A stretch of DNA of 64,000 nucleotides. Origin: Paramecium tetraurelia. Taxonomy: Eukaryota. The notes under the pieces were generated by a model. It was not told the DNA's origin and ran no database searches. It saw only the letters and a list, made by a program, of their open reading frames with translations. Where the stretch lies: assembly GCA_000165425.1 (NCBI GenBank), contig CT868207.1:372001-436000 (forward strand), given 5' to 3'. The position numbers and the translations under genes were made by a program. This document shows positions 8,480 through 34,054 of this stretch, one piece after another. The number at the start of each line of letters is the position of its first letter. Position 1 is the first letter of the stretch.

Positions 8480-11400
8480 ATGTTGAATAGTAAGAGAGCG
8501 CGTTGGATATTCCAAACAATTGCTGATTCATTTCGATTGAAGGATGCAAATTTGGTGGCGGTGAGTTTTGTTGTCTTATTTTGTTAGGAATTCTTAAAGG
8601 ACAAGACTAAACTTGAAAAATTCTTAGAGGGAGAAGGTCCATCCAAGATAATTATATACTACCAGATTTAGGATAACCAGCAATCTGATGATATGAAGGA
8701 GAATCAAAATGAGCCTTCACTCTTTATTTAATCTGGAGATTAAGAAAAAATCAAAGAGAAAGCCGTATGGTTTTTAAGAATGTAAGTACAGACATACATT
8801 TGTTTATCTATCATCTTCCTTATATTTTAAAATTAAATCTTTATGAATTTTATTTAGGACTCCAGAGGGCAAGACCGCCGTGAATCTCAATGAGACATAC
8901 GATAACTAAGTGATTTGGGGAGAAGTTTCACCCTCCTCGATTTCCTAATTGCATACAGTGATGGAAAATGTGTACTACCCATTGATAATTAACATGATGG
9001 ATGAGCGGGAATGGGGATAATGTGATGAAGAATCCTTAAAGGAATTCCATAGTCACACCAAGAAGTTTTCTTAGGAAGTATCAGAGGCAGTCAAACTAAT
9101 GAGGCCAGGACAAGAATTATTCAAATTCGATCCTGAAGAAGTGTAGAAATACTCCAATTCAAATAATGAATAAGAAAAAAACTAATTTTATGAAAGAAAG
9201 TTTGCCTAATGGATTGCAATCATTAATAACAAATTAGCTGAAGATCAAAATCCAAAGAAGGATAGTCCAGATGCAGGTCCAGAAGTTGAATTGAATTATT
9301 GGAAAACAAGAATGTAAGAAATTACTAATTGGTCTGAATAATTAAAGGGCAAAGACTTTGTGACTGTAAAAACTACACTCCAAAGAAACAAATAACATGA
9401 TAAGTCAACTAATAGAGGAGAGGAGAATATCAATAAACTCATAATGGAATATAGTAGACTTGATCTTTTGCTTACTGACAAATTAAATGAAGCCAAGGAC
9501 AATGTTAAGTATCTCTCAACTTTGGAAAAGTTCCTTGATCCATTATACAAAGGAACTCCTCAACAAATTATTGACACATTACCAGCACTTATGAATGCTA
9601 TTAAGATGATCCATACTATTGCTAGATTTTACAATACAAATGATAAAATGACTGGCTTGTTTGTCAAAATTACTAATCAAATGATTAAGAATTGCAAAGA
9701 GAGAATATTAAATGGAGGAAAGAATTAAGATATCTGGAATAGAGATCCATCTGAATTAAATGAAGTTCTTAGACAATGCATACAACTCAATAGAGAATAC
9801 AAGGATAGTTATAAAGAGACTAAGGAGAAAGTGGCTGATATGCCCAAAGGTAAAACATTCGATTTCCCAGAAACACAGATATTTGGTAAATTTGATACTT
9901 TTGTCAGAAGATTGGTTAAACTAATTGACATATTTTAAAATATCTAATAATTCTAGGCTTTGGCTAAACATAACCTAGAAGGTATGGAATAATTGACTGC
10001 TAAATTCAATTAAATCATTAAGGATTTCAAAGCCAAAAATCATGATTTGTTAGATACAAACAGTAATAAATTTGATAGAGATTGGGTTGAATTCAATGTT
10101 GAAATCTCCCATTTGGATATGTAATTACAATCATTCATTGATAATAATTTCAATAGATTGAGAACTATTGAATATTCACTTAAATTATTGAAGAAATTTG
10201 AATAAACAATCAAGAGAGATCAATTGAAAAATTCATTGGTATCTAAATATAATACAATATTGCACAACTATGCAACAGAATTAGACAAGATCTAACGTAT
10301 ATTTACTGATCAAAAATCAAGTCCTCCCATTGTTAGAAATATACCACCTGAGGCTGGTAAGATCATTTGGGCTAGACATCTATTTTTAAAAATCACAGGG
10401 CCTATTACTAAATTCCCTGAAAATGCTATTGATTAAGGAGAATTGAAAAAATATTATGGTGGATACAACACTTTGGGTAAATAATTGACAATCTATGAAA
10501 TGTGGTATTATTAGAATTGGTCAAATGAAATTGAAAGAAGTAAGGCTGCATTATAAGCCACTTTGATTGTAAGACATGATGAAAACAAAAAATTATATGT
10601 TAACTTTGATGTAGAAATAATGCAATTAATTAGAGAAGCTAAAGTATTGGATAGATAAGGAATTGAAATCCCAGAAAGTGCAAGAATCATTCTTTTATAA
10701 GAAGATAAATTTAAGATGTATTACAATGAATTACTTTATGTTCTGAAAGAATATGAAAGAATTATTTCAAAAATAAAACCAATTTGCAAAACATTGATTG
10801 GTCCACATGTTGAAGATTTAGAATTGAAATTGAGACCTGGTATGGTTACATTGACTTGGACATCAATGAATATTGATAGTTATTTGTAAAGTGTTCATGC
10901 AGGATTAAATAAATTGGAATAATTGATTATCACAATAAATGACATCATTGAAAATAGAATTGAGAACAATTTGAAAAACATTAGTAAAGTATTGTTGGTA
11001 CATTTACCATAAGAAAGCAAACCTTTGACTTTGGATCAATTTGTTAATTTGTAAGAGGAATACATAAAGACCAAGACAGATTATTTGATGAGTAAGAATT
11101 TGGAAGTCGAAAGAGCAGTTGATGATTTACTCTCTGTGATTAGAGAATATAAATTAGATCCACATGTTGAATATGCTGATCCTACAGAAACCATCAGAAT
11201 CAAGAGATATTACTTCTGGTATTTGTATTAAGCATTACTTAATTCAACTTAAAATTCACTCAATGCCATGAAATACAGAGTATGCGGAAAGAAAGGACCA
11301 GGACAATCAAGCACTTAAAATTTGAAACCATTCTTTGAAGTCGATGTTCAATTATTCAATAATCAAGTTAGATTGAATCCAAGTTTAGATGAAATATAGA

Positions 11401-14400
11401 AAGCAATCAATAGAGCAGCCACTGCAGTTTTGAGATGTTCTAAGAATCTTTATAGTTGGAACCTGTAGTAAAAGGAAAGCAAAGGATCATTTTATGAGAT
11501 GATTGCTCAAGATAAGGAAATTGTAAAAGTCATATTGTTATTGACTGGTTCAATTTAAGGTACAAGAAACAAAGTTCATGATTTCTTATCATCATTCAAG
11601 AAGTTCTCATGGTTGTGGACTGAAAACATTTAAGATAACATCAATAGTTTCAGTAAGAAGAATCCAACTTTGTAAGATTACGAAGATGCCTTGAAGAAAT
11701 TCACATCAATTGAAGAAGAAATCGATAAAATTGAAGCATCTCATAAAATTGGTGCCATGGAATTAAAGACAGGAAATTTATGTAGTGGATTGAAAGTACA
11801 TGCAAAAGATTGGAAAAATTTCTATTGTTAAGATCTTCATAAAAGAGCTAGATAATTATTAGACTAATTGACAGATTTAACTAATTAATATTCAACTAAA
11901 TTATCCAAGGAAGTTAAGGATATTGATTCTTTAGGATACGTTATGGAATGTTTAGAAGATATTCGTAAGATTCAAGCAGAAATCGATTTGAAATTTAATC
12001 CAGTTTAAGACATGTATGCTCTTTTGGATATCTATTTACCAGGTGGTATTTCAGATAAGGATGAGATGGATCAAAGATCTATGTTAAGAAGAAATTGGGA
12101 TCAATTGATTAGTTAAGCTGAAATTAAAGGAAAGGAATTACAATAGAAATAAAAGAATTATCTCAAGTAATTGAAGAAGTCAATTAAGGAATTTATTTAA
12201 GAAGTTAATGATTTCCGTAAGGATTATGAATTGAATGGACCAATGGTTGAAAATATTGCACCAAAGGAAGCAATGGAAAGATTACGTAGATTCGAAGATG
12301 AATTTTCAGTTAAATAGAAATTCTATTAAATTAATAGGAAGGGTGAAGATCTGTTTGGTCTATAAAATTAATCCTATCCAGCTCTTAAAAAGACCTAGGA
12401 TGAATTAGCAAACTTGAAGAAATTGTATTCCTTATTTTCAGATGTCATTGATACAATTAATAGATGGAAAGAAGAATCTTGGGCTGATGTTTCAGTTGAA
12501 TCATTGAATTAGATGGAAGAAAATTTCACAAAATACACTGCTTAATGTGGTACATTACCAAGAGATTTAAGAGAGTGGTAAGCCTATAAGGAATTGAAAT
12601 TAGAATTAGATAATTTAAATAAGATTTTGCCAATCATCAAGGAATTGAAAAAACCATCCATTAAACCAAGACATTGGATGAAGATTGTTGAAACAACAGG
12701 AAAGCAATTGAATTATGAAAATCCAGATAACTTCTTTATTTCTGATATCATAAACTGTGAGTTATTGGCTCATGAAGACGATATTGTAGATATCACAGAT
12801 TCAGCAGATAAATAAATTAAGATTGAGACAAGTTTGAAAGATATCGTAGATAGATGGTCTACACAAGAATTCAAATTCTCAATTTGGGGTAAAAGAGAAG
12901 TACCATGTATGCTTAATGGTTTGAGTGTGTAAGAAATTACAGAAACTTTGGAAGAGGATCAAATGACCTTATCTTCATTGAATGCTCAAAGATATGTTGC
13001 ACCATTCAAAGTTGAAGTTGAAATCAAAATCAGAGAATTCTCAGATGTCTCAGAAACATTGGATATGTGGATTAAAGTATAGAAGTTATGGACTGCATTG
13101 GAACCAGTATTTACAGGTGGTGATATTGCTAGATAAATGCCATTATAAGCTAAGTAATTTGCAGCTCTTGATAAGAATTGGATGAAAATTATGGAAAAAG
13201 CATTTGAAAGCAAAAAGGTTATTATCAGTTGTTAAAACGATATGTTAAAGGACTTTTTACCAGATTTGTAAAAGAAATTAGAAGATTGCTAAAAGATGTT
13301 GGAAGCCTATTTGGAAGGTAAAAGAAAGAAGTTCCCAAGATTTTACTTTGTGGCTAATCAAGATTTATTAAAGATTTTATCTCAAGGAAGTGATCCAAAG
13401 AGTATTCAAGAAGACTTTGAAAAGTTGTTTGATGCCATCACTAAAGTCACATTTGGAAAGAATACAGAGAAGAAAGGATCTACTGAATTAGTGATCCAAT
13501 AAATTATGTAAAGTGCAGGAAAAGATGAAGAAATTGTAGATTTGAATTAAAATGTTAAGTGTGAGGGAAATATTGAAGGTTGGTTAAAGACTTTAGAATT
13601 ACAAATGTAATCTACACTAAGAGATATTACAAGAACAGCTTGTAGTGCTTGTTTCACTATGGGATTAAAGGATTTCTGTAAGGCTTATTGTTCTTAAGTT
13701 GCTTTGTTGGGTATTCAAGTCATTTGGACTCAAAAGATCACAGAAGCATTAGAAAAGACAGGAAGATAAGAGAATAAGAATATCATGGAAACAAAGAGAG
13801 CTGAAATTAGAGACATGATGGCTGTATTATCAGCGATGTGTTTGGAAGGATACAAAAGTAATTTAGAAAGAACAAGAGTTGAAACTTTGGTCACAATCCA
13901 TGTCCATCAAAGAGATATTGCTCAGGAATTGAAATGCAAAGACATTAATGATTTCGATTGGTAAAAGTAGACTCGTCTTTATTGGAAATAAGATTAAGAC
14001 ACTTGTGTTATTTCAATTACAGATTGGGATTAAGGATATGCCTATGAATTCTTGGGATCTAAGGAAAGATTGTGTATTACTCCTTTGACAGATAGATGTT
14101 ACATTACATTGGCTTAAGCTATGTCTATGTATTATGGTGGTGCTCCTGCAGGGCCAGCTGGTACTGGTAAAACTGAAACAGTTAAGGATTTGGGTAGAAC
14201 TTTGGGAGTCTTTGTCGTTGTCACAAATTGCTCAGATTAACACAGATATAGAGATATGGCTAAGATTTTCAAGGGATTATGTTAATCAGGTTTATGGGGT
14301 TGTTTCGATGAATTTAATAGAATTGATTTGGAGGTGCTTTCTGTCGTGGCTATGTAAGTGGAAGCTATTACAACTGCAAAGAAATAACATCTCAAAGAAT

Positions 14401-17400
14401 TTATGTTCCCTGAAGAAGTTGCTCCAATTGAATTACAATAATAAGTAGGATACTTCATTACAATGAATCCAGGATATGCTGGTAGATAAGAATTACCAGA
14501 AAACTTGAAAGCCTTATTTAGAGGAGTGTCTATGATGGTTCCAGATAGAGAAATTATTATTAAAGTCAAGTTGGCTTCTGTTGGTTATAACTCAATCGAT
14601 GCATTAGCCAAGAAATTCAATGTTTTATATCGTTTATGTGAAGAACAACTTTCAAAATAAAGACATTATGATTTTGGTTTACGTAATATCTTATCAGTGC
14701 TAAGAACAGCAGGTAATACCAAAAGAGAAGAACTTAAATCTGACGAAGAAATGCTTTTAATGAGATCCTTAAGAGATATGAATTTGAGTAAGTTGGTGGC
14801 TGATGATATTGCCTTGTTCAATGGATTGTTACAAGATATCTTCCCTAAATAAAGTGATATCAAAAAGAAGGAATATCCAGATGTTGAGAAAATGATCCCA
14901 TAAGTCATCTAAAGAAAAGGAGGTTTAATCAATAATGATAAATTCCAATTGAAGATCATTTAATTATATGAAACAGCTTTGGTTAGACATGGTTTTATGT
15001 TAGTGGGACCATCAGGCAGTGGTAAGACCACAATTATGTCTGTATTGACAGATTCATTAACTGATTTGGGTCTTCCTCACAGAATCACAAGACTTAATCC
15101 TAAAGCCATTACAGCCTAAGAAATGTATGGTGTCAAGAGTGAAATCTCAGATGATTGGATTCCAGGTATCTTCAGTACAATTTGGTAGAAATCAAATAGC
15201 AGAAACAATAAACATACTACTTGGATTACTTGTGATGGTCCAGTGGATGCTATTTGGATTGAAAATTTGAATACAGTGTTGGATGACAATAAGATTCTTA
15301 CTCTAGCCAATGGTTAGCGTATACCAATGACAGAAAATTGTAAATTGGTGTTTGAGGTAGAAAATCTGAATAATGCTTCACCAGCAACAGTCAGTAGATG
15401 CGGATAAGTTTATATTTCACCAACAGATTTAGGATATGAACCAGTATGGAAAGGATGGATATTACAAAGAAAATTAGATGCAAGAGTTGATGAATCAGAA
15501 AAATTGAATGTTCTACTCAATAAATACTTTAACACTCACCTTATCTTAGAAACAATAGACAAGACATGCAAGAATCCAGTTATGGATATCTCTTATGTAT
15601 TAAGGGTCTATCAAACCTTAAATCTTCTCAATGGTATTTTGAGACCATTAGTAAATGCTAACAAAACATTGACTGAATAAGACTATGAAAAAGTAGTTGT
15701 CTTTGCAATGACTTGGGGAGTAGGTGGCATCTATGAAGTACAAGATAGAATCTTATTCCATGAATTCCTTAGCCTAAAAAGGTGCCCCAATTCCATACAA
15801 AGCTAAAGATGGTGAAACAGTCTTTGATTACTACATCTACTTGGATGAAAGAGGTACTTGTGAATGGAAACTCATATAACCAGAAGAATGGAAAGCTCCA
15901 GATAAATTTTATTTCTCTCAATTACTCATGCCTACTGTCGATTCATTCAGAGCTGAAATGATCTTATCATACATTCTTAATCAACCAAAGGCATCCCCAT
16001 AACCACCAGTCAGTTGCAGTTATGTTATCTTAGTGGGAGGTAGTGGTACAGCCAAAACATCAAGTGTGCTTATGTATGCCAACAAATTCAACAAAGAAAA
16101 GATGTTGTTCAAGAGAATCAACTTTTCATCTGCTACTCTACCTAGTCACTTCTAGGCTGCTATTGAAGCTGAATGTGATTTCAAAATAGGTAAAGATTTT
16201 GCTCCTCCTCAAAATAAAAACATGACTGTATTCATTGATGATCTTTCTATGCCTTTTGTAAATAAGTGGGGAGATTAAGTCACCTTGGAAATAGTTAGAC
16301 AACTCATCGATTAGGGTGGTTTCTATATGTTAGACAAAGCCTAAAGAGGTAACTTCAGAGGTATCAAAAACCTTACATACATCGGAGCCATGTAACATCC
16401 AGGAGGTGGTAGAAATGATATCCCTAACAGATTGAAGAGATAAGCAGTCATTTTCAATATGATTTTGCCACTCTCAGTTGAAGGCATTTATGGTCCCATC
16501 ATCAAACATTAATTCAAGGCTAAATACTTCTCAGCTGATGTCAATAGAGCTATTGATACATTAACTGGTGCAACCATTTAAATTTGGAATAAAGTCAAAG
16601 CAACTATGTTACCAACACCAGCCAAATTCCATTATGTGTTCAATATGAGAGATCTATCCCGTGTCTTCAAGGGTATCTTATCAGTAAGAAAGGAAACAAT
16701 AAACACTGCTGCTTAAGTTGGACCAATGAAATCAGATGTATTTTTAGTTGGATTGTGGATGCATGAATGTGAAAGAGTCTTTGTAGATAAAATGACTAAT
16801 CAAAAGGATAAGGATCAAGTATGTAATTACATTAAGGATATTGCTTTGGATCTATATAACCATTTAGATAGTGAAATCTAAGATAAATACAGCAAGGAGA
16901 AGTTATTCTTGATGTGCGATTTCTTGAAGGAAGATATAAAGAATGAAGATGGATTAGTTGAAGTTGAAGCTGAAAAGATTTATGAGGGAGTCAATTCTAT
17001 TGACAGATTAAGATTAAGATGTAATAGTCTTTTACAAGATTACAATGATAAATACCCAGCAAAGAAGATGAGTCTAGTGCTTTTCGACGATGCTATCAAA
17101 CATTTGTTGCGTATTTCAAGATTAATTAAATAACCAAGATCCAATGCTTTATTAGTAGGAGTTGGTGGTTCAGGTAAATAATCCTTGACAAGATTGGATG
17201 CTGATATCTTGAAGAACGTATGCTATTAAATTATTTTGACTAAAAATTTCAGTGAGAAAGACTTGAAAGAAGAAATTAAGAAATTGTTTGATTGGGCTGG
17301 CCATCTTGGTAAATAGGTTACGTTTATATTGACAGATAGTGAAGTGAAGAAAGAGGAATTCTTAGAATATATCAATATGATCTTATCAACAGGAGAAGTG

Positions 17401-20400
17401 GCTGGTTTATTGGCTAAGGATGAAAAGGAAGTTTGGTTGGCTGATGTCAGAAATGATTATGTCAAAGAGAAACAATTGGGTAATATTGATCCTCCTTAGA
17501 GTGACTTATATGCCTATTTGGTTGATAGAATAAGAGATAATTTGCATATTATTTTGTGCTTCTCACCAGTAGGTTAGAAATTCAGAGACAGATCTCGTAA
17601 ATTCCCAGCTTTATTCAATGAATGTACAATTGATTGGTTCTTGCCATGGCCTGAAGCTGCTTTGGTTAGTGTTGCTGAAACATTCATCAAGAATTTCAAA
17701 GAATTAGACACAACTAATGACATCAAGGAAGAATTGATGAAACATATGGGTAATGTACATATCATGGTTAATTCTGTTTGTGAACTTTACTTCCAAAAGA
17801 TGAGAAGACAAGTTTATGTTACACCAAAGAGTTATCTTTCTTATTTGAATTCTTATAAGGAATTGTATTTGAAAAAATATGCTGAATTAGATCTTCAAGA
17901 AAATTCATATAAGATTGGTTTGAATAAGATTAATGAAGCAGCTAAACAAATAGAAAAGATGGGTGTGGCTTTGAGAGAAGAAGAAGCTTAATTAAAGGAA
18001 GCATCAGAAAAGACTGAAAAATTATTAGAAGACTTGGAAAAAGAAAGCAAGAAGGCCAATTAAAAGAATGATGAAGTCGAGGCTACCACTGCTTAATGTA
18101 TGAAATAAGCATAGATGATTGCAAGTGAAAAATAAGCTGCCGAGAAAGATTTGGCTGCTGCTATGCCTGCTCTCATAAGAGCTTAAGAAGCCGTCGATTC
18201 TTTGGATAAGAAGGATATTGATGAAATGAAGGCCATGAAGACTTTGATGGACATTATGAAAGCCATTATAGACTCAATTGTTGTATATTTCATGGGTAAA
18301 TTATTGCCAGTTCAATCATTCACTGTGAAGATCAGTAAGGTCGATTATCAATTCTTGAAAGATTCATTTGATGAAGGTGGTAAATCAGTTCTTTTTGATA
18401 TGAACTTCTTAAACAAATTGAAGGGATTTGAGAAAGATGGTATTAATGAAGAGACTATCGAATTATTGTAACCATACATGTCATAAGAATGGTTTAGTGA
18501 AGAAAAGGCCCAGAGTGCTTCAAAGGCAGCTTAAGGTCTATTGAAGTGGGTTAAGGCTATTTATGAATATCATGAGAAGTCAAAGATCGTTAAACCCAAG
18601 AAGGTCTATTTGTAAATCTAAGAGGGTCGTCTTGAGATGGCAAGAAAAGAATTGGCAAAAGCTGAAAAAGATTTGAATGAAATCAAGGAATATTTGGCTA
18701 AATTGAAGGAGACATTCAACAAGTAAATGGAAGAGAAATCATTTTTGGAACAGAAATCAAATAAAACTAAAAAGAGAATTACTACAGCTAGATAATTGAT
18801 TGAATCACTTTCAGATGAAAAGGCTAGATGGGGATAAGGAGCCACAGAAAATAGCTGATCAAAAACGTAAATTAATTGGTAATTGTTCATTGGCTACCTC
18901 ATTTATTTCTTATTGTGGTCCATTCAATGCAGAATATAGATAGTTATTGGCAGGAGATTATTTCGTAAATGATCAAAAGAGAAGAGGTGTTCCAGTTACA
19001 CCAGGATTGAATCTGACATAGTTTTTAGTCGATGATGCCACAGTAGGAGAATGGAACTTATAGGGATTGCCTAAAGATGAATTGTCCATTCAAAACGGTA
19101 TCATGGTTACCAATTCAACCAGATATCCTTTGTTAATTGATCCATAAGGACAAGGTAATTACTGGATCAGACAAAAGTTCGCTGACAAAATTGAACCCTT
19201 CAGATGCATTACTACATTGAATCATCCTAAATTCAAAGATAACTTCTTAAAACCATGTATGTAAGATGGATTATGTTTGATTATTGAAAATATTGAAAAT
19301 GAAGTAGATCCTATGTTGGATCCAGTACTTGAAAAGTAAATCTAAGTCAAAGCCAAGAAGAATAAGTATATTGAAGTTGGAGGTACTTAAATGGACTTTG
19401 ATGATGGATTTAAATTGTTTATGTTTTGTAGATTAGCCAATCCTACATTCTCTCCTGAATTATCAGCCAAGACAACCATTATTGACTTTACTGTTACTCA
19501 AGGTGGTTTAGAATAATAATTGTTGGGTAAGGTCATCAGTAAAGAATAAAAAGCTTTGGAAGACTCTCTCAATTAATTATTGGCAGATGTCAATTAAAAT
19601 AAGAAAGATCTATAAAGATTAGATAAGAATTTGTTAGAAAGATTGACTCAATCTTCTGGTAACCTTCTGGAAGATGAGGGTCTCATTGAAGTGTTGGGAA
19701 GCACTAAAACTTAAGCCAAAGAAGTTTCAGTGAAATTGTTGGATGCTGAAGTCAAGACCAGAGAAATTAATGAAAAGAGAGAATAATATAGACCAGTTGC
19801 AATCAGAGGTTCAGCCTTGTATTTCACTATTTTGGAAGTCTCATTAATCAATTGGATGTATAATTCCTCTTTGGAATAATTCTTGAAGTTGTTCAATGAT
19901 TCTATTGATCAATCTGAAAGAAATACATTACCCTCGAAAAGAGTTGATAACATCATTAAATATCTCACTTTCCATGTTTATAAGTATGTCAATAGAGGTC
20001 TATTTGAAAAGGATAAGATTTCCTTCATTTTAATGATGTGTTTCAAAGTTAAACAAACAGACAAAAAAATTAATGCTGGAGATGTATCACAATTCTTGAA
20101 GAGTGGTGCTGCTTTGGATCCTAAAACAGAGAAATAAAAGCCATTCTAATTCTTGGATGAGAAATAATGGCTCAACATTTTAGCCTTGTCTAGACATCAT
20201 TTCAATGGAGATCAAATGGCCTTCTTTAGAGATCTACCAGAATCCATTTCTAGAAATGAACAACAATGGAGATAATGGAATGATAGAAATGATCCTGAAA
20301 ATTCACCAATTCCAGATTTTGCTGAACGTATAGCAGCAGACAAAGAAATTGGTCCATTCATTTCCTTATGTCTCGTAAGATCACTTAAAGAAGATAGAAC

Positions 20401-22434
20401 CTTAGTTGCTGCTACTCATTTTATTAATGCAACTCTTGGCAAAGAATTTACTGCTCCTATTTCATATCCTATCGATTCTATTTGGGCAGAAAGTTCCAAA
20501 ACTGATCCAGTATTATTCTTATTGTCTGCTGGTGCTGATCCTACTTCATCTATAGATGATCTCTCAAGAAAAAAGAGAAAAGTATTTTGTGAAAAAGTGT
20601 CAATGGGAGAAGGTCAAGAAGAAGCTGCCAGAAGAGTCATTAAGAATGGTTTCGAAACTGGTATGTGGGTTATTCTCTAAAATTGTCATTTGGGTCTTAA
20701 ATTCATGGAAGAAATCGAAACCATTGTTAATCCAGAGGCAACCATAAATGATGACTTCAGATTGTGGATTACTTGTGAATAGCATCCTAAATTCCCATTG
20801 GGTCTCTTATAAAAGACTATCAAAGTTACCAATGAACCTCCTAAGGGATTGAAAGCAGGTTTGTATAAGACCTTTACTACAATCATCACATAAGAATTCT
20901 TGGAAAAGGTTGAACATCCAAATTGGAGAAGTCTTATCTATACAATTTGTTTCTTACATTCAATTGTCATTGAAAGACGTAAGTTTGGTCCTCTTGGATG
21001 GTGTGTACCTTACGAATTTAATAATCCAGATCTTGAAGCCTCCCTTGCATTTATTGAAAAATACTTGAATTCATTCCTTAGTGGACCTCCTTCATAATCA
21101 CCAAACTTGAATTTGAATATGAATGTCATTAGATACATGATTTGTGAAGTGTAATATGGTGGTCGTATTACTGATGATTTGGATAGAGAATTGTTTAATG
21201 CCTATGGTGAAGATTACTTAAAGGAAGCAATCTTTGGAAACGAGTATGTTATAGCTGAAGCACCATTTGATGCAGGAGGTGGTACTAAACCAACTAAATT
21301 CTAATACAAAATCCCTGCCACAACTTAAATGCCAGAACTCATTAAGTATCACGATGTCATTAAGTAATTACCTGACATTGATAATCCTGAAGTATTTGGA
21401 TTACATGTTAATGCTGATATAACATTTAGAAAGAAAGAATCTACTGAAATGATTATAACAATTATGGACACTAGACCAAAGGATTCCGGCGGTGGCGGTG
21501 GTAAAACAAGAGAAGAAATAGTCTAGGATAAAGCTAGAGAATTATTAGCTAAATTACCCTCAGACTATGTTGATCTGGAAGTTAGAGAACAAGTTCGTAA
21601 ATTAGCAGGTCCAAAGAATCTTCCAGATAAGGGATTGACTGTGCCACTTAACATTTTCTTATATCAAGAAATCCAAAGAATGCAAATAGTTATTGCCATT
21701 TGCAGAAAAACATTGTCAGATGTCATTGATGCAATTGATGGACAGATCATCATGACTCCTGATATTTTAGAAGCTATCAATTCGATGTATGATGCCAAGG
21801 TTCCACTTACCTGGGTTTATGATGCTACAGGAGTAGAAATCTCATGGATCTTGCCCACTCTAGGAGCATGGTTCAGTTCATTGATAGATCGTAATAAGCA
21901 ATTAAACGATTGGTTGAAGAGCAACAGACCCAATCACTTTTGGCTTGGTGGTTTCTTTAATCCTCAAGGTTTCTTGACTGCAGTCAAATAAGAAGTCACT
22001 CGTATGCACAAAGGTAAACCAGGAGACAAGGATGCTTGGTCATTGGATGATGTTGTACAATCCACATAAGTTAAAGAAAGAGAATATGAACAAATCAGAG
22101 ATATTCAATCAGAAGGTGTCTATGTGAGTGGATTATCTCTTGAAGGATGTAAATGGAGCAGAAATGGACTTGACGAGTCTGAACCAAAGAAGATGTTCGC
22201 TCCTTTGCCCATCCTTTATGTCACTGCTATCAATAAGAAGAAGGGTGCTGATGCTGAAAAGAATTCCTCGACTTATAGTTGCCCTGTTTATAAGGTATTA
22301 TTTTATGTAATTCATCTTAGTATCCAAGAAGAACTGATAAATATCTCATTTGTAGAGTTGGATTGCCTTGCGAAGGTACAGGTGCTCATAAATGGAAGTT
22401 AAGAGGAGTAGCACTCTTATGTTCAACTGAATGA
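8480..22434 (+). CDS. Axonemal outer-arm dynein heavy chain, gamma type (DNAH5/DNAH8-like)
   Basis: N-terminal tail ([25 protein letters not shown]) followed by four P-loops: GPAGTGKT (~14151), GPSGSGKT (~15006), GGSGTAKT (~16036) and GVGGSGKQS (~17158). Stalk present; C-terminus [16 protein letters not shown]. Introns at 8561-8587, 8782-8857 and 22295-22320. Two +1 frameshifts (~15774, ~18850) must be bridged. Confidence 0.96.
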
Positions 22435-22927
22435 GATTTTAATATATATTATATATTATTTTATGAACAACATGAATAAAATGGGGTATCCATTCCTTAA
22501 CAAGTTTTAACTCAAATATTTTTTAGAATTACTACAGTATTAATTGTATCATAATATTGTTAACTTTTTTAATTATAAATTGAGAGTATCTATTTTAACA
22601 ATGCTGTAGGAAAGTTATTTTTGGCTTATGGAAGATTATTTTGAAGATCTCAAAACGAAATTATTAATATTTCTATTCTAAGCTTTAAATTTGTCAGGTA
22701 GATTTTTTTATTATTGAGAGAATATGTAATTGAGAATTCTTCTGGATAATAATTAAATTCTAAAAATAACAGATTAGAAAATACAGTTAAAATTGGCTAT
22801 TTATTATAATTAGTTAATAAAGCAAAATTTCTTACTTTTTGATTAAATCCTACAATTCAAACTTAGATTTTAATTTTAAAAGTAGATTTAAAATTGATTG
22901 ATATTAAATAAAACATATCTTATAATA

Positions 22928-28374: not shown

Positions 28375-28560
28375 ATTATGAATATATTAATATTATATTT
28401 ATGATAATCGGTTATTTCATAATATCTCAAACAACTTAAATCCATAAAATATCCAGTATCAACTCAGTGTTTCAAATTAAGAGGCGATATTTCTGTGATA
28501 ATGAATATACTAATCAAATATGAGACAATTTAAAAATCTTTTAAATTTGTTATTTTTAAA

Positions 28561-30005
28561 TCACAACAAAATTTGATCTTAAGCCATCTCCTTTGAAACC
28601 GCATCCAAATATAATCCATTCAAACTTATCAGAGCGATAAATTCATTGTATTATTCTAAGATTAGTTTAAATTCGGTTTCATAATCCAAAGATTCAATGA
28701 AAAAAGCTACAGCTGTTCTTTTGAATGGAACAGCCTTCTTCAACTATTAAAACAACCCTATTGTTAATACACAGAAGTCATCTCCTTAAATGGCTGATGA
28801 TCCGCCTTTAACCTAAGATATTACAAGAAATTTATACTCCAATATGATCATATTCTTTAGCCAAAGCTGGATTTTACATAGAAACATATCCCATCAAAGC
28901 ATAAAAATGTGAATAAAACTGTTCATTAAACCAAAAACCATTATTTAATTTATCAAGCATTTTAGAGTATTCTGAAGTTGTTGATTTTGTGAAATATTTT
29001 GATTGAATTTTTAAAACTTCCCCATCTAACAACTACTTACCTCTACTTAAATAATCTTTAGCTAAATCATTATTTTGATTCAATTAATCATGTATTTCCA
29101 TGCTTTTTAAATATACCTCATTTTAAGATAGCTTCTAAATATTTTATATGAATTCTTCCTTTTTGCTTTGTTCGTCTTTTGTGAATACCGATAAAAACGA
29201 GCTTAAATAGAAGATTTAACTTTATTTTAACCCCAATTAATCGACCGTATTTTCAATAGATTGTAAAGTCAATAGAGTTTGTAAGTATTCAGTACAAGCA
29301 TTAGAACTTAATGCTATCATTCCTATTGCGATTTCCTTCAATTACAATTACCCTTCTTTTAACTTACCTTATTGTTCCCAAATTTACAAAAAATTAGCAT
29401 GAGACAGATCTAATTCTTTTATGTAAAACTTATTAACTTCATTTAAATTAATCCAATCTTCTTCATTTATTTTACCTTCGTTTAATTATTTGCAATATTC
29501 TATGGCAACAATTATTTTGAAAACACTCATCAAAGTTTATTCTCTATAACCGAAATAGTCTGCTATTACTTTGTTATCTGCAATAACAGAAAAAGAGAAT
29601 TTATTTGGATAATGCTTTATCCATTAAATCATTGATGGTTACATATGATCATTCATACTGAAAGAGGCAATTTTACCTTTTTGATCATATGACCAAAATA
29701 AAGTACCAGTTCCCAAATGTTTCTAAAAGCCTAATAGAACGCTTGGTTTTTCTTTATCCACAGTTGAATAGACCCAATAAGATATAATTCCTTATCTATT
29801 TCTGATTGCCTCTATTTGTGAAGAGAAAATTTCTAATGATGTAGCCTTTTGTGTGTCTCTAGAAAATAAGTTATAAATTAATGCTGCATTGCCTTAAAAC
29901 TTGATTTTATGTCTTACCTTCATTGTATGCACTCTTTAACAGATCAAAATAGGCTAGATTAGATTCATCAGAAGCAACAAATACCCCTTCAACAAGATTT
30001 ATCAT
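28561..30005 (-). CDS. Beta-lactamase/penicillin-binding-fold serine hydrolase (SxxK family), bacterial-like, ~464 aa
   Basis: SxxK motif MSVFKIIVAIEY (29516-29530), SxN motif GMIALSSNACTEYL (29300-29308) and KxG motif GVKGGSS (~28801-28812). Two 25-nt GT-AG introns (29893-29917, 28813-28837). ATG at 30005, TGA at 28561-28563. Confidence 0.85.
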
Positions 30006-30485
30006 AAAAATGCTGAATAAATAATACAACATAGATTAAAAATATTTTCATTTATGGAATATAATTTATCATTAAAATTCAATAATATTTAATGAATAAG
30101 TAATCTATCCATAAGAATTTTCATATCAACCAATTAATAATTATTAAAATTCTTTTAGACTGATTAAAAGCTATTTCTAATAAAAAAAATCAATAACAGA
30201 ACATATCATAATATTTTTATATATTAACACATCTTTGTTTATAGAAAGATAATAACAAATAATAGTTTTGCTAAACATTTAAAATGCTATCTTTTAATAT
30301 ACTGTTAATTCTTTCAAATAATCAAGATTACAGTTAATTTCTGAAAGCATTTAGATATGAAATTCATATTAATTCTAATAATAAGAATTCTAGATAATAG
30401 GTTTAATTGGGTGAGTATATCATATATCTATATTCATTAATTGTTTTAAATATATTATAGCAATTTGATTTATATAAATTATATT

Positions 30486-32210
30486 ATGAAACCATAAATT
30501 TGTTTATTAGGCATTCAGAAGTTTGCTAAAGATAAATAGGTTTTGAAATAATTGTAAGAATAATTAGGAGATAAATTTATTAAGCCTAGCGAAATTATTA
30601 AACCTAAAATGAAACCATTTTGTTTTTTGTAATTTAGTGATGAGGATTAAAAAAATGTAATAGTTAAATTAATTATAAAGAATTTCGTTAAGTTAATTGA
30701 AGATAATCCAGAATTGAAACTTAGGATAGGAGAGGTCCATAATGAGAATGCTTTTGAAAAATAATTAGAGAAGAAAATTAAGCAATAAAAATAAAATGAA
30801 GATGAAGTCAAGCAATTTTAAGAAAAGCATTAGAATAGAGATGTCATTGAAAGAAAGGATAATGAATTAGCATTATAAACAGCTCCACTTTATTAAGTTA
30901 AATATGAAGAATAAGTTGAACAGAAGATGGCTGAACTAAAAAAGGTAATTAAAAAATTAAGAAATTAATTTATTTAAAAAAATGGTAAAGAGTATGCCCC
31001 TGATTGGATTCTAGAGTAATTATATATAAAATACTAGTACGAATTTAATTAAGCTAAATGACCCTATAACTTGTGATGAATAATTTAGATTTAATTATAG
31101 AAACAAATGTGAATTTACAATCAGCTATAATAGTTAAAAAGAAGTTTGTGTCGGTTTTAATGTGGGTTCAGTTCAAAAAAATAATGATAGTGTTGAATAA
31201 GTATTAAATTATCAATATAAAAGCCCAACACATGTCCAGTAACACCTGCTGTTGCTATGGAAATTGCCAATAAATTTTAGACTTACTTATAATCCTCCAA
31301 GTTTTAACCTTTTAATAGACAAAATGGGAGTGGAGTATGGAGGATGTTGAGTGTTAGAAAGAGTGATAGGACTAAGTAATTATTAATAAGTGTAAGCATA
31401 AATAAGGACAACTTATAATAAGATGAATATGCTGTGGTTTGTGATGAATTAATGACACTATTTAGCACTTCTTATGGCGAATTCAGCTTACAAGGATTAT
31501 TATTAATGCATTCAAATAAATTGGGTTAGGATTTAGCTAGTTCTGCCGATGACACAAAAATATTATTTGGAAATTCATATTACTAAGAAATCATTTTAGA
31601 CAAAAAAATCAATATATCATACAATGCTTTTTCTTAAAATCATACACCTCAATGTGATAAGTTATATTAAGTAATTATTGATCTTTGTAAAAACAAAAAA
31701 ATCACCAAATTTTTAGATTTGTGTGCTGGTAGTGGTACTATAGGGATTTGTGTGAGTGATTAAATTCAAGATATTTTAGCAATTGAAATGAATAAGTCTT
31801 CATGCGAGGATGCTTGTGAAAATTATAAATTAAATAATCTTCAAAATTGTTAAATTATTTGTTCAAAGGTGGAAGATGTTATAAAAAAGGTTGCCCAAGA
31901 TTTAAAGAGTTTTGAAGGAAAACAACAATTGATGGCTTGTTTAGATCCCCCAAGAGCTGGAGTCCTTAATAATGTTATTGAAGCTATCAGAACTTGTAAA
32001 GGTATAGATCACATTATTTATGTTTCTTGTTCTCCTCCTCAGGTAATTGATAATTTAATTTAACTCTGCTTACCTCAGTGTAAAAAGAACAAAGCACCTG
32101 GATTTAAGTTAGTCAATGTGACATTAGTTGATATGTTTCCTCAAACAAGTCATTTTGAAGCAGTATTCTATTTGGAGAGAGATTATGGTATATTATCTGA
32201 GCTGATGTGA
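30486..32210 (+). CDS. tRNA (uracil-5-)-methyltransferase, TRMT2A/TrmA family
   Basis: RRM-like N-terminus, then YRNKCEFTI, SAM-binding LDLCAGSGTIGI, LDPPRAG, catalytic IYVSC, and VDMFPQTSHFE. TGA at 32208-32210. Confidence 0.92.
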
Positions 32211-33005
32211 GATAAATATAAATTTGTTGTATAATAAGAATATAAAATGATATTTCTAAGGAATTTTCACCTTATGTTAATTTAGATGTGAATGATTCAA
32301 ATATTTAATAATCTAAGATATATTTGTATGATTAATATCCTAAAAAATAGTGGTAATCTCAAATCTAAGCAATATTTTCATCTTTTTTGTGAATTTAGAA
32401 TTTGTTCATTTGTGTTTTATTCAATATCATCTTCATTTTTTTATATTCATTAGTTTTTAATATGATGTCAATATGATGACATATTTTTTGTTATCCTTTT
32501 AACACATTTATTACGAAATCAGGTTTTCTTATTTTGTGCAATGCAAGTTTAAAGCTTAATTTATTTAAGGGAATTAATGCCTTATTCAAAATAAGGCTCT
32601 CATAAAGAATATCCATTTATAAGTAACTCTTTCGATAGTATTTAAGTGTTAATAAGTAAGAAGTCGGGATTGTCTACCATTTTGGATAAATAGCTTCTCA
32701 TAATTGGTTAACATTTATTTATTCCAACACTTTAAACAAAGTCTAGAAATTAGATTGAATAGATGGACATGAATATGTTGATTTTCTTTTAGTTTAATAC
32801 TAGACATATATAAAATCGCTGAATTTTCAGAGATTAGTAAATCCTGAGGTATTCAAATAATTGGCAGTTTCTGATTCTCATTGTAAATCTTAAATTTATT
32901 AATTTGAATATCAATTTTCGAAAATCGTAAATATCATAATTACATTTTTTCTATTATAATAATAAATTATTATTGTAATAATAAGAATAATTAAGAGAGG
33001 AATTA

Positions 33006-33518
33006 ATGTCGGATAAATTAGAATATAATAATTAGTTGGTGCAATATGGTTTTTAAGGCAAGCAATTTCCAGTGTCAATTAAAGCAAAATAACTATCAAA
33101 TTATCCCCTTGTTATGGCATCGCTATTAGTAATCACAATTAAGTTATAAAAGTAAAAATAATTCCCACGTAAGATACAGTTGTAGTCCCCTTTGAATAGG
33201 AAGATATCAAATCATTCATTCAAGAAATCATTGAGTATTAAAAGGATTTCCACTCCCAAGAGGAAAAACCCAACTTATGAAGACGCATTATTCATAACGT
33301 TGAAACCTCTGACATTTAATCAGATAAATGATTCAAGAGCCTAGACTGCTCACTAGTTTAGACCAGAATAGGACAGTCTAAAGGACACTGGAAAATTATG
33401 GTCTTGCCAATCAAAGAGAGCATCCCATTTTTTTCGTTCAAGAAACAGATCTGCTCACTGTAATTAGAATCAACAATAATTCAAAATAACTAGAAATGGT
33501 AGAGTGGAATTTTTATGA
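33006..33518 (+). CDS. Small basic hypothetical protein (~160 aa)
   Basis: ATG at 33006 (MSDKLEYNNQ). One 24-nt GT-AG intron candidate (~33129-33152). Open code-6 frame to TRNGRVEFL-TGA at 33516-33518, flanked by AT-rich spacers. Confidence 0.6.
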
Positions 33519-34054
33519 ATTTTTAATTTACTATATTTGTTTATTGCATACTTCAATATCTCATCTATCTCATTATAATATAGCATAATTGATTCAGATG
33601 TAAATTCAATGATGTAAAATCAGATAAATTTTAAGATTTTGATTAAGGTATTTATATTATTACATATAATGTAAATAAAATATTCAAAATAAAAAATGTA
33701 TGAGTTTTGGTGAATTATGCTGAAACTTGTTGGTGTGTGTATTGAAAATCTCAATTATCAAAAATAAATTGAAATAACTATTAATTTAGTAGTAAAATAT
33801 AAAATTAAATTTATTTTAAACATGTAATGTTGCAAGATACTTTAACATTAATTCTAACTTTGAAAATTTTACAAATTGGAATTGCATGAGAAGGGGGAAT
33901 AAAATTAGGTGGTGTATGATAAATGGCGTCATTCAGTGTAAATAAATGAATCGAATTTTGATGATGACACATTTTCAAATAAAAGTTTAATAAGAAGAGA
34001 GTATTAAATAAGAAAATCAATGAATTTTTGATAATAAAATTTTAATTAAAAATA

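What the first reader, a model, noticed from the sequence alone, without database searches (positions are those of the whole stretch)
28561..30005. Bacterial-type beta-lactamase-fold serine hydrolase domesticated in a ciliate genome (candidate HGT)
Seen: all three penicilloyl-serine-transferase motifs are intact (SVFK, SSN, KGG). The gene carries two 25-nt Paramecium-style introns and uses TAA/TAG as Gln, so it is a native nuclear gene and not contamination. Recalled knowledge: the blocks KIIVAIEYCKQLNEGKI and LKEIAIGMIALSSNACTEYL closely resemble class-A-like 'Beta-lactamase2' serine hydrolases of Firmicutes/Bacteroidetes. The ~110-aa N-terminal domain (YNEGNAALIYNLFS…DQKGKIASF) resembles the DUF3887-like domain fused to such enzymes. 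Inference: a horizontally acquired enzyme in a bacterivore, possibly acting on prey peptidoglycan D-Ala termini, beta-lactams or endosymbionts. No signal peptide is evident.
Basis: partly seen in the sequence, partly recalled or inferred. Interest (0 to 1): 0.72.

Follow-up and report, generated by a model that had tools for sequence, protein, structure and literature searches.

The report
Bacteria-derived serine hydrolase in Paramecium
This ciliate carries a genuine, spliced nuclear gene for a bacterial-type enzyme of the penicillin-binding/beta-lactamase fold, probably taken from bacteria long ago and since duplicated, that most likely cuts ester or amide bonds in prey-derived molecules rather than destroying penicillins.

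Summary
Confirmed: a three-exon minus-strand gene (30005-28561, code 6, two 25-nt introns) encoding the 464-aa Paramecium tetraurelia protein P0001 (PF13354), transcribed at low level on the right strand. The genome holds four paralogues with shared intron positions; one is a conserved pseudoenzyme. Orthologues occur in four other P. aurelia-complex species. All other close relatives found are bacterial-like (Bacteroidota, Bacillota, Ignavibacteriota), and two share the DUF3887-plus-catalytic architecture. Ancient horizontal acquisition is likely (~0.85). The donor phylum is unresolved: 24 of 61 placements were not rejected, and no usable root exists.

Its closest structure is Streptomyces Cpe/Orf12, a cephalosporin esterase with KAG/KGG and no omega loop. 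An in-frame ATG at 30032 gives a possible signal peptide, and the paralogues carry clear ones.

Best reading: an exported serine esterase/amidase acting on prey-derived substrates; the substrate is untested. No description was found in the searched literature.

The parts
30006..30032 (-). Possible 9-codon N-terminal extension from an in-frame ATG; with residues 1-7 it forms a signal-peptide-like leader. Use not shown.
   Evidence: hydropathy 2.24 versus 1.81 for the annotated start; nearest in-frame upstream stop at 30050; paralogue leaders
29918..30005 (-). Exon 1 (from the annotated ATG)
29893..29917 (-). Intron 1, 25 nt, phase 1; same position in the paralogues on C624, C666 and C74
   Evidence: splicing not seen directly in reads
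28838..29892 (-). Exon 2
28813..28837 (-). Intron 2, 25 nt, phase 0, just before the KGG codons; same position on C624 and C74
   Evidence: 25 letters left out here in one contig of run X9
28561..28812 (-). Exon 3 with TGA stop
29651..29966 (-). N-terminal DUF3887/NTF2-like domain (about residues 14-110; spans intron 1)
28591..29638 (-). Class A-like serine hydrolase domain (about residues 115-455)
29516..29527 (-). SxxK motif: Ser152 (nucleophile), Lys155
29399..29410 (-). Family-specific Asp191...His194 element (98% and 90% in 298 non-Paramecium rows; kept in all Paramecium rows, pseudoenzyme included)
29300..29308 (-). SSN motif (Ser225, Asn227)
28982..29218 (-). Helical insert (about residues 255-333) in place of the class A omega loop; no Glu166/Asn170
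28798..28809 (-). KGGS motif (Lys383, Ser386), lacking the Thr/Ser of K[T/S]G

Best explanation
An ancestor of the P. aurelia complex took up, once, a bacterial gene for an exported two-domain protein: a DUF3887/NTF2-like ligand-binding domain plus a class A-related serine hydrolase of an uncharacterised KGGS subfamily. The gene acquired ciliate codon use and an intron, then duplicated into at least four lineages, one of which lost catalysis but stays conserved. The enzyme works by acyl-enzyme chemistry: Lys155 activates Ser152, and Ser225, Asn227, Lys383 and Ser386 line the site. It has no Glu166 to hydrolyse a beta-lactam acyl-enzyme quickly and no Thr/Ser235 to grip a substrate carboxylate. 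It therefore most likely works like Cpe, as an esterase/amidase, here sent through the secretory pathway to food vacuoles or the cell surface to cleave acyl bonds in prey-derived molecules (envelope D-amino-acid esters or amides, or small metabolites). SHOWN: gene structure, transcription, paralogues, motif state, fold, distribution within the databases searched. INFERRED: direction and age of transfer (about 0.85), catalytic activity (about 0.85), export (about 0.5 for this copy, higher for paralogues), esterase/amidase type and prey substrate (about 0.45).
For: Native context: eukaryotic neighbours; the region is colinear with the whole-genome-duplication sister region on C557 on both sides; GC3 24%, within the 23-36% of four neighbouring stretches; strand-correct reads in three oligo-dT runs of one study. 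Single old origin: all 12 Paramecium rows form one clade, support 99-100; intron 1 is shared by all four loci; paralogues are 29-55% identical. Bacterial family: of the top 150 of 958 HMM hits among 1.84 billion representatives, 3 are Paramecium and 0 of the other 147 are closer to Paramecium than to a named bacterial protein. GTDB hits are 48 Bacillota, 30 Bacteroidota and 1 Ignavibacteriota of 79 used. P0016 and P0020 carry DUF3887 above cut-off plus PF13354, and a Paramecium N-terminal profile ranks them first and second of 2444 targets (E 2.7e-5, 0.02). Catalytic residues are kept in 10 of 10 non-degenerate Paramecium rows. Cpe likeness: Foldseek ranks 1-10 are all Cpe chains (E 2.3e-14); VIA Z 23.1, 295 aligned, rmsd 3.6; the top Atlas cluster is PF13354 with ORF_12_N in 51% of members. 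KGGS occurs in 260 of 298 relatives, K[ST]G in 5 of 298. PMC6478378 (Discussion read) reports KAG/KGG, no omega loop, esterase activity and no detectable beta-lactamase activity for Cpe.
Against: No tree places the clade inside a supported bacterial group: its sister changes, the careful search never finished, 24 of 61 placements survive the AU test, and outgroups are too distant to root (33 bits or less versus 330-494). 808 of the 958 HMM hits were not visible, and organism names were obtained for only 5 of the 24 bacterial-like representatives looked up. Cpe is tied in Z with a Chitinophaga beta-lactamase (6v4w, Z 23.1, 257 aligned), is only 10-15% identical, and is cytoplasmic. All five orthologues of this copy are annotated from the downstream Met, without a full signal peptide. 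Several residues near-invariant in bacteria are changed in Paramecium (Ala151 to Met, Trp197 to Phe, His254 to Ser/Thr, Trp326 to Gln), so the substrate may have shifted. Expression is low (mean depth 1.3-1.7). No activity was measured.
Confidence: 0.5

Rival explanations
1. Horizontally acquired DD-carboxypeptidase/endopeptidase that digests prey peptidoglycan in the food vacuole.
For: Some bacterial relatives are auto-named D-alanyl-D-alanine carboxypeptidase. The relatives inspected begin with a hydrophobic leader or anchor in both monoderms and diderms. The best sequence match among solved structures is PBP-A, tll2115 (E 1.1e-8). PMC2266909 (passages) hypothesises this role for eukaryotic PBP homologues.
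Against: K[ST]G is found in only 5 of 298 relatives. P0001 has no PF00768 hit. DD-carboxypeptidases score Z 17 or less (staphylococcal PBP4 18.1) versus 23. No recurring cell-wall gene among 122 neighbouring ORFs of 32 bacterial loci. The names are automatic.
Confidence: 0.2
2. A beta-lactamase or beta-lactam sink that protects prey, symbionts or the ciliate's food supply.
For: Class A fold. LpqF, reported as similar to Cpe (PMC6478378), is labelled by a carbapenem probe and hydrolyses nitrocefin above buffer (bioRxiv 10.64898/2025.12.15.694292, passages and section 10).
Against: Leu259 and Leu263 align with Glu166 and Asn170 of a class A enzyme, and there is no conserved acidic column in residues 245-340 of the Paramecium rows. 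No NCBIfam class A hit for P0001. Cpe has no detectable beta-lactamase activity. The ciliate has no beta-lactam target of its own (general knowledge).
Confidence: 0.1
3. Bacterial in origin but repurposed: this copy is a cytosolic enzyme or a ligand-binding protein with a ciliate-internal substrate, unrelated to prey.
For: Five of five orthologues are annotated without a full leader. Family-invariant pocket residues are replaced. A catalytically degenerate paralogue is as conserved between species (93.7%) as the active ones (90-93%), so the fold has a non-catalytic use.
Against: In-frame upstream ATG with a hydrophobic leader. Start annotation is inconsistent in the C74 group, where P0197 shows the full leader that P0006 and P0162 lack. 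All five catalytic residues are kept.
Confidence: 0.15
4. Ancient vertical inheritance (eukaryote ancestor or mitochondrial endosymbiont, LACTB-like) followed by loss elsewhere.
For: The Paramecium stem is long (0.7-1.3 changes per site) and an unrooted tree cannot exclude a root on it. Ciliate sampling in the protein collection is unknown.
Against: No other eukaryote among the hits. The genome's own PF00144 genes score below 0 bits on the family profile. LACTB scores Z 14.7 and has SxxK/YST/HTG motifs. No alphaproteobacterial clade of relatives among the GTDB loci (one truncated gene on a MAG titled Thalassobius).
Confidence: 0.04
5. Bacterial contamination or assembly artefact.
For: Bacterial best hits.
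Against: Code 6, introns, four paralogues on four large contigs, orthologues in five species, strand-correct poly(A) reads, synteny with the sister region.
Confidence: 0.01

Closest known systems
Cpe/Orf12 of Streptomyces clavuligerus (PDB 2xep, 2xf3; cephalosporin esterase)
   Same: N-terminal isomerase/cyclase-like (NTF2-type) domain plus class A-like domain; SxxK, SxN, K-G/A-G-S; no omega loop (PMC6478378). Best structural match.
   Different: 10-15% identity; no sequence-level hit; no ORF_12_N hit in P0001; Cpe is cytoplasmic and sits in a clavulanate cluster. In the rigid superposition mainly the catalytic domain aligns.
Uncharacterised KGGS subfamily of PF13354 in Bacteroidota/Bacillota ('serine hydrolase', 'class A beta-lactamase-related serine hydrolase')
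   Same: Direct parent family: 25-33% identity over the whole catalytic domain, same insert, same Asp/His element, same KGGS. P0016 and P0020 also share the DUF3887 domain.
   Different: Most bacterial members lack the N-terminal domain. Paramecium replaced several family-invariant residues, gained introns and code 6, and evolved a pseudoenzyme.
PBP-A (tll2115) of Thermosynechococcus and class A beta-lactamases
   Same: Fold, SxxK and SxN motifs; best sequence matches among solved structures; Z 20-23.
   Different: They keep KTG and a short omega-loop region (SxN-to-K spacing 101-104 in L166/L167 versus 158 here); class A enzymes have Glu166.
LACTB family and the genome's own PF00144 genes
   Same: Eukaryotic serine enzymes of the PBP/beta-lactamase superfamily.
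   Different: Different Pfam family, motifs and origin; no profile similarity; Z 14.7.
Beta-lactamase-annotated HGT candidates of the ciliate Pseudocohnilembus persalinus (PMC4614350, table passage)
   Same: Precedent for beta-lactamase-like genes of bacterial origin in a ciliate.
   Different: Their family was not determined here; no such protein was recognised among this family's hits.

Membership tests
Pfam PF13354 Beta-lactamase2 | Score above gathering cut-off (22 bits) | tested here: met
   38.7 bits, E 8.7e-10
Class A beta-lactamase | SxxK and SxN motifs | tested here: met
   SVFK, SSN
Class A beta-lactamase | K[T/S]G motif | tested here: not met
   KGG
Class A beta-lactamase | Omega-loop Glu166 and Asn170 | tested here: not met
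   Leu259/Leu263 align there; about 80 profile positions stand against 16 in PBP-A
Class A beta-lactamase | NCBIfam bla_class_A cut-off (200 bits) | tested here: not met
   No family at E <= 0.01 for P0001; relatives 26 bits or less
Class A beta-lactamase | Beta-lactam hydrolysis | not testable with these tools
   needs assay
DUF3887 (PF13026, NTF2-like) | Score above cut-off (31.8 bits) | tested here: inconclusive
   No hit for P0001; homologues 15.8-22 bits, best E 2.7e-4; linked to true DUF3887 domains of P0016/P0020; Atlas top three clusters DUF3887 but score 0.77-0.79, a lead only
Cpe/Orf12-type proteins | NTF2-like domain N-terminal to a class A-like domain | tested here: met
   Helix-helix-helix then four strands in residues 14-110; full-length Foldseek alignment, 443-492 columns
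Cpe/Orf12-type proteins | KGG/KAG followed by Ser; no omega loop | tested here: met
   KGGS; Cpe features from PMC6478378
Cpe/Orf12-type proteins | ORF_12_N Pfam domain or sequence similarity to Cpe | tested here: inconclusive
   No ORF_12_N hit at E <= 1; Cpe not among the 10 profile hits; structural identity 10-15%
Cpe/Orf12-type proteins | Location in a clavulanate biosynthetic cluster | tested here: not met
   Neighbours are a tRNA methyltransferase, ankyrin, dynein and unannotated ciliate genes
Cpe/Orf12-type proteins | Cephalosporin esterase activity | not testable with these tools
   needs assay
Low-mass PBP DD-carboxypeptidase (Peptidase S11) | K[T/S]G motif and PF00768 match | tested here: not met
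   KGG; no PF00768 hit for P0001
LACTB family | PF00144 domain with SxxK, YxT/N, HTG | tested here: not met
   No PF00144 hit; motifs per PMC2266909
Bacterium-to-eukaryote horizontal transfer | Gene physically in the host genome and ameliorated (introns, code, synteny, transcript) | tested here: met
Bacterium-to-eukaryote horizontal transfer | Narrow eukaryotic range, wide bacterial range | tested here: met
   Only P. aurelia-complex species among named eukaryotic hits; limited to the top 150 of 958 hits and to unknown ciliate sampling
Bacterium-to-eukaryote horizontal transfer | Supported nesting within a bacterial clade in a rooted tree; donor identified | tested here: inconclusive
   Sister group unstable; 24 of 61 placements not rejected; no usable outgroup

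The most novel reading that the evidence does not exclude
The only known eukaryotic branch of an uncharacterised Cpe-like serine hydrolase family, used by a bacterivore as a small secreted toolkit: three active paralogues that cleave a bacterial envelope linkage or prey metabolite not yet assigned to any PBP-fold enzyme, and a conserved catalytically dead paralogue that acts as a binder or sensor of the same bacterial ligand (a prey-recognition receptor built from a bacterial enzyme).
Probability: 0.15. Interest if true: 0.8.

Novelty: new variant of a known kind. Interest (0 to 1): 0.5.

Why it matters
Bacterial genes in ciliates are known, beta-lactamase-annotated ones included, so the transfer alone is not surprising. 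The value lies in the enzyme type. It belongs to a large bacterial subfamily (hundreds of 50%-identity clusters) with no solved structure and no characterised member found here, and its nearest structural relative, Cpe, still has no known natural substrate. A genetically tractable predator that has kept three active copies and one conserved dead copy gives a direct way to find the substrate. It also allows a test of the idea that PBP-fold enzymes help phagotrophs digest or recognise bacteria. The database label 'class A beta-lactamase' is misleading for these proteins.

Tried and rejected
Contamination: rejected. LACTB kinship: rejected. Donor assignment: four trees gave four different neighbourhoods. 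FastTree joined the clade to long branches P0132/P0142/P0158/P0159, which the mixture model did not repeat. The careful search did not finish in two runs. A tree forcing Paramecium with P0016 scored 11.4 log units above the free quick tree (p-AU 0.71), but on a fixed backbone that placement ranked 17th of 61 (p 0.16) and sisterhood with P0020 was rejected (p 0.005); no donor is claimed. Rooting with class A, PBP-A-like and DacA sequences from five genomes was dropped because they barely align. Rows dropped from trees: proteins under 300 aa (L019, L133 pieces, L117 and the short representatives); subsets of 56 and 36 rows were chosen by diversity plus forced key rows. Gene neighbourhood: 122 of 140 picked ORFs from 32 of 80 GTDB loci gave no conserved functional context. 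Metagenome scan: 80 best of 190 confirmed loci, 79 with one uninterrupted table-11 ORF and one split (L133, not examined), none ciliate-like. Profile word search with A2 found only 13 proteins and added nothing. PF13354 search of the own genome gave no candidate although four loci exist, so that search is insensitive. No listed sequencing run that holds the stretch is on record as RNA. Single-sequence fold of P0016 failed (pLDDT 36), so the N-terminal domain was not searched on its own. Synteny among the four paralogue regions: none beyond scattered kinase-like and low-complexity matches, so the duplications could not be tied to a genome-doubling round. Literature: no paper held the gene identifiers; none held all of lateral gene transfer, ciliates, lactamase, Tetrahymena, Paramecium; the listings showed no description of this family, and the passages read in PMC4614350 and PMC13198582 do not name it. 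Supplements were not read; genome-wide transfer screens may list the gene there. Three look-ups of earlier scan findings returned nothing.

Full report
Observation. Exons 30005-29918, 29892-28838 and 28812-28561 on the minus strand give 464 codons plus TGA in code 6, with 24 of 35 Gln codons TAA/TAG and 25 stops in table 11. Both introns are 25 nt and GT..AG. The product is identical to P0001, named by its sources as a Paramecium tetraurelia protein and by UniRef as 'Beta-lactamase class A catalytic domain-containing protein', so the fold is already auto-annotated. PF13354 scores 38.7 bits against a cut-off of 22.

Native and expressed. The window lies on a large contig of a 72-Mb assembly among ordinary ciliate genes. 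CDS GC is 28.5% and GC3 24%, within the range of four neighbouring stretches. The sister region on C557 is colinear on both sides at 81-88% identity but lacks 28446-33920, which holds this gene, the tRNA methyltransferase and the next stretch; I read this as loss after duplication. Three oligo-dT runs of one study show reads over most bins of the gene, all in the orientation of a minus-strand transcript, at mean depth 1.25, 1.25 and 1.65, and none in 30041-30403. One contig of run X9 (RNA is a guess there) lacks exactly the 25 letters of intron 2. No raw-read joint reached the listing threshold, and intron 1 was not seen spliced; its support is frame restoration and conservation.

A small old family. 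The genome has four loci: C224 (this gene), C624, C74 (with a 416-nt N run over its SxxK region) and C666. Intron 1 sits at the same codon and phase in all four, intron 2 in three. Paralogue groups are 29-55% identical, and P. tetraurelia/P. octaurelia orthologues 90-94%. Named homologues come from five species: tetraurelia, octaurelia, primaurelia, pentaurelia and sonneborni. The C666 group is degenerate: NSN for SSN and no KGG in all three rows seen, and Pro for the nucleophile in two of three. It is nevertheless as conserved as the active copies (93.7%), which suggests a maintained pseudoenzyme.

Start codon. An in-frame ATG at 30032 adds nine residues and gives a hydrophobic leader (9-residue hydropathy 2.24 versus 1.81; clear paralogue leaders 2.6-3.3). 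In the C74 group, P0197 shows a full leader that P0006 and P0162 lack, so start annotation is inconsistent. Against this, all five orthologues of this copy are annotated from the downstream Met. No signal-peptide predictor was available and read depth cannot place the 5' end. I put export of this copy at about even odds.

Relatives. A profile search of 1.84 billion representatives gave 958 hits, 150 listed. Three are Paramecium; none of the other 147 is closer to a Paramecium protein than to a named bacterial one. Of 24 looked up, 5 yielded organism names, all bacterial. GTDB gave 122 confirmed loci, 80 kept; the 79 used were 48 Bacillota, 30 Bacteroidota and 1 Ignavibacteriota. The 80 best of 190 metagenome loci read in table 11, 79 uninterrupted. 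The family is discrete: members score 330-494 bits on its profile, other PF13354 proteins 33 or less, and the genome's PF00144 genes below zero. Two unnamed metagenome proteins, P0016 and P0020, have a leader, DUF3887 above cut-off and PF13354, align with P0001 over nearly its whole length and are the two best of 2444 targets for a Paramecium N-terminal profile. PMC3924330 (passages) describes DUF3887 as NTF2-like, without conserved polar catalytic residues, possibly ligand-binding, and reports N-terminal fusion of these DUFs to hydrolases including a beta-lactamase.

Phylogeny. The Paramecium rows form one clade in every tree (99-100; 97 and 100) on a long stem. Its neighbour is unstable: Bacteroidota side, Bacillota side, P0065, P0011. 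A tree forcing it with P0016 was not rejected. Of 61 placements on a fixed backbone 24 survive the AU test, including Paenibacillus-side branches and P0016, while P0020 is rejected. Transfer is therefore inferred from distribution and architecture, not from supported nesting, and the donor is open.

What kind of enzyme. The model (pLDDT 94.7, pTM 0.93) matches Streptomyces Cpe/Orf12 best: Foldseek ranks 1-10, VIA Z 23.1-23.4 with about 295 residues aligned versus 234-257 for class A enzymes, tied in Z with a Chitinophaga beta-lactamase in the wide search; LACTB scores 14.7. The Atlas independently returns PF13354 clusters carrying ORF_12_N. Ser152, Lys155, Ser225, Asn227, Lys383, Gly385 and Ser386 are kept in 10 of 10 non-degenerate Paramecium rows and 92-99% of 298 relatives. 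The third motif is KGGS in 260 of 298 and K[ST]G in 5. Leu259 and Leu263 face Glu166 and Asn170 of a class A enzyme, and the SxN-to-Lys spacing is 158 versus 101-104. About 80 profile positions, helical in the model, replace 16 residues of PBP-A. PMC6478378 (abstract, passages and whole Discussion) reports the same departures in Cpe (KAG or KGG, no omega loop), in vitro esterase activity, no detectable beta-lactamase activity, and an unknown natural substrate. LpqF, reported there as similar to Cpe, binds a carbapenem probe and turns over nitrocefin above buffer (bioRxiv 10.64898/2025.12.15.694292, passages and one section), so slow acylation by beta-lactams is plausible. The protein works like a Cpe-type serine hydrolase; it is not a member of the class A beta-lactamases, of S11 DD-peptidases or of LACTB, and it is not Cpe itself.

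Mechanism. Most likely an exported acyl-enzyme esterase/amidase, with the N-terminal domain helping to hold a small ligand, acting on prey-derived material in food vacuoles or outside the cell (0.5 overall). Rivals: peptidoglycan DD-peptidase (0.2), internal repurposing (0.15), beta-lactam hydrolase or sink (0.1), vertical inheritance (0.04). Bacterial neighbourhoods gave no clue. Several pocket-region residues invariant in bacteria differ in Paramecium, so the bacterial substrate need not be the ciliate's.

Novelty. Ciliate genes of bacterial origin are known, including two beta-lactamase-annotated candidates in Pseudocohnilembus (PMC4614350, table passage) and peptidoglycan amino-sugar enzymes in anaerobic ciliates (PMC13198582, passages). 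I found no description of this family in the ten searches run; supplements were not read and most subscription papers are outside the library. Verdict: real, a new variant of a known kind, interest 0.5.

Noticed in passing
L004 (G000:C666:325.3-326.7 kb), proteins P0164, P0081, P0211: Paralogue with degenerate catalytic motifs (Pro for the serine in two of three species, NSN, no KGG) yet 93.7% identical between two species: a probable conserved pseudoenzyme, auto-named 'transmembrane protein'.
   Followed up: partly
window 8847-22717 (+): Axonemal dynein heavy chain; 14832-22470 is 97.5% identical at DNA level to its sister copy on C557 (394360-402000) while flanking sister DNA is 81-88%, suggesting gene conversion or strong constraint.
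   Followed up: no
window 28446-33920 versus G000:C557:388231-389257: A 5.5-kb block (this gene, the tRNA U5 methyltransferase and the next stretch) is missing from the sister region; the methyltransferase gave a single match in the genome.
   Followed up: partly
L184 (C694:81.8 kb), L185 (C91:53.0 kb), L186/L187 (C676:345.3 kb): Three PF00144 serine hydrolase genes in the same genome, unrelated to this family; L184 has hydrophobic N- and C-termini like a secreted, membrane-anchored protein. Their origin was not examined.
   Followed up: no
L003:2065-2480 (G000:C74): A 416-nt N run covers the SxxK region of the C74 paralogue, whose database protein (P0013, 248 aa) is only the 3' part.
   Followed up: partly
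P0132, P0142, P0158, P0159: Divergent bacterial-like members in which the DGGAH element and some catalytic motifs are altered (P0158 and P0159 lack the SxxK serine/lysine pattern): possible bacterial pseudoenzymes of the same family.
   Followed up: no
P0009 (P. sonneborni): A fifth paralogue lineage, 42-47% identical to the others, with no counterpart found in this genome.
   Followed up: no
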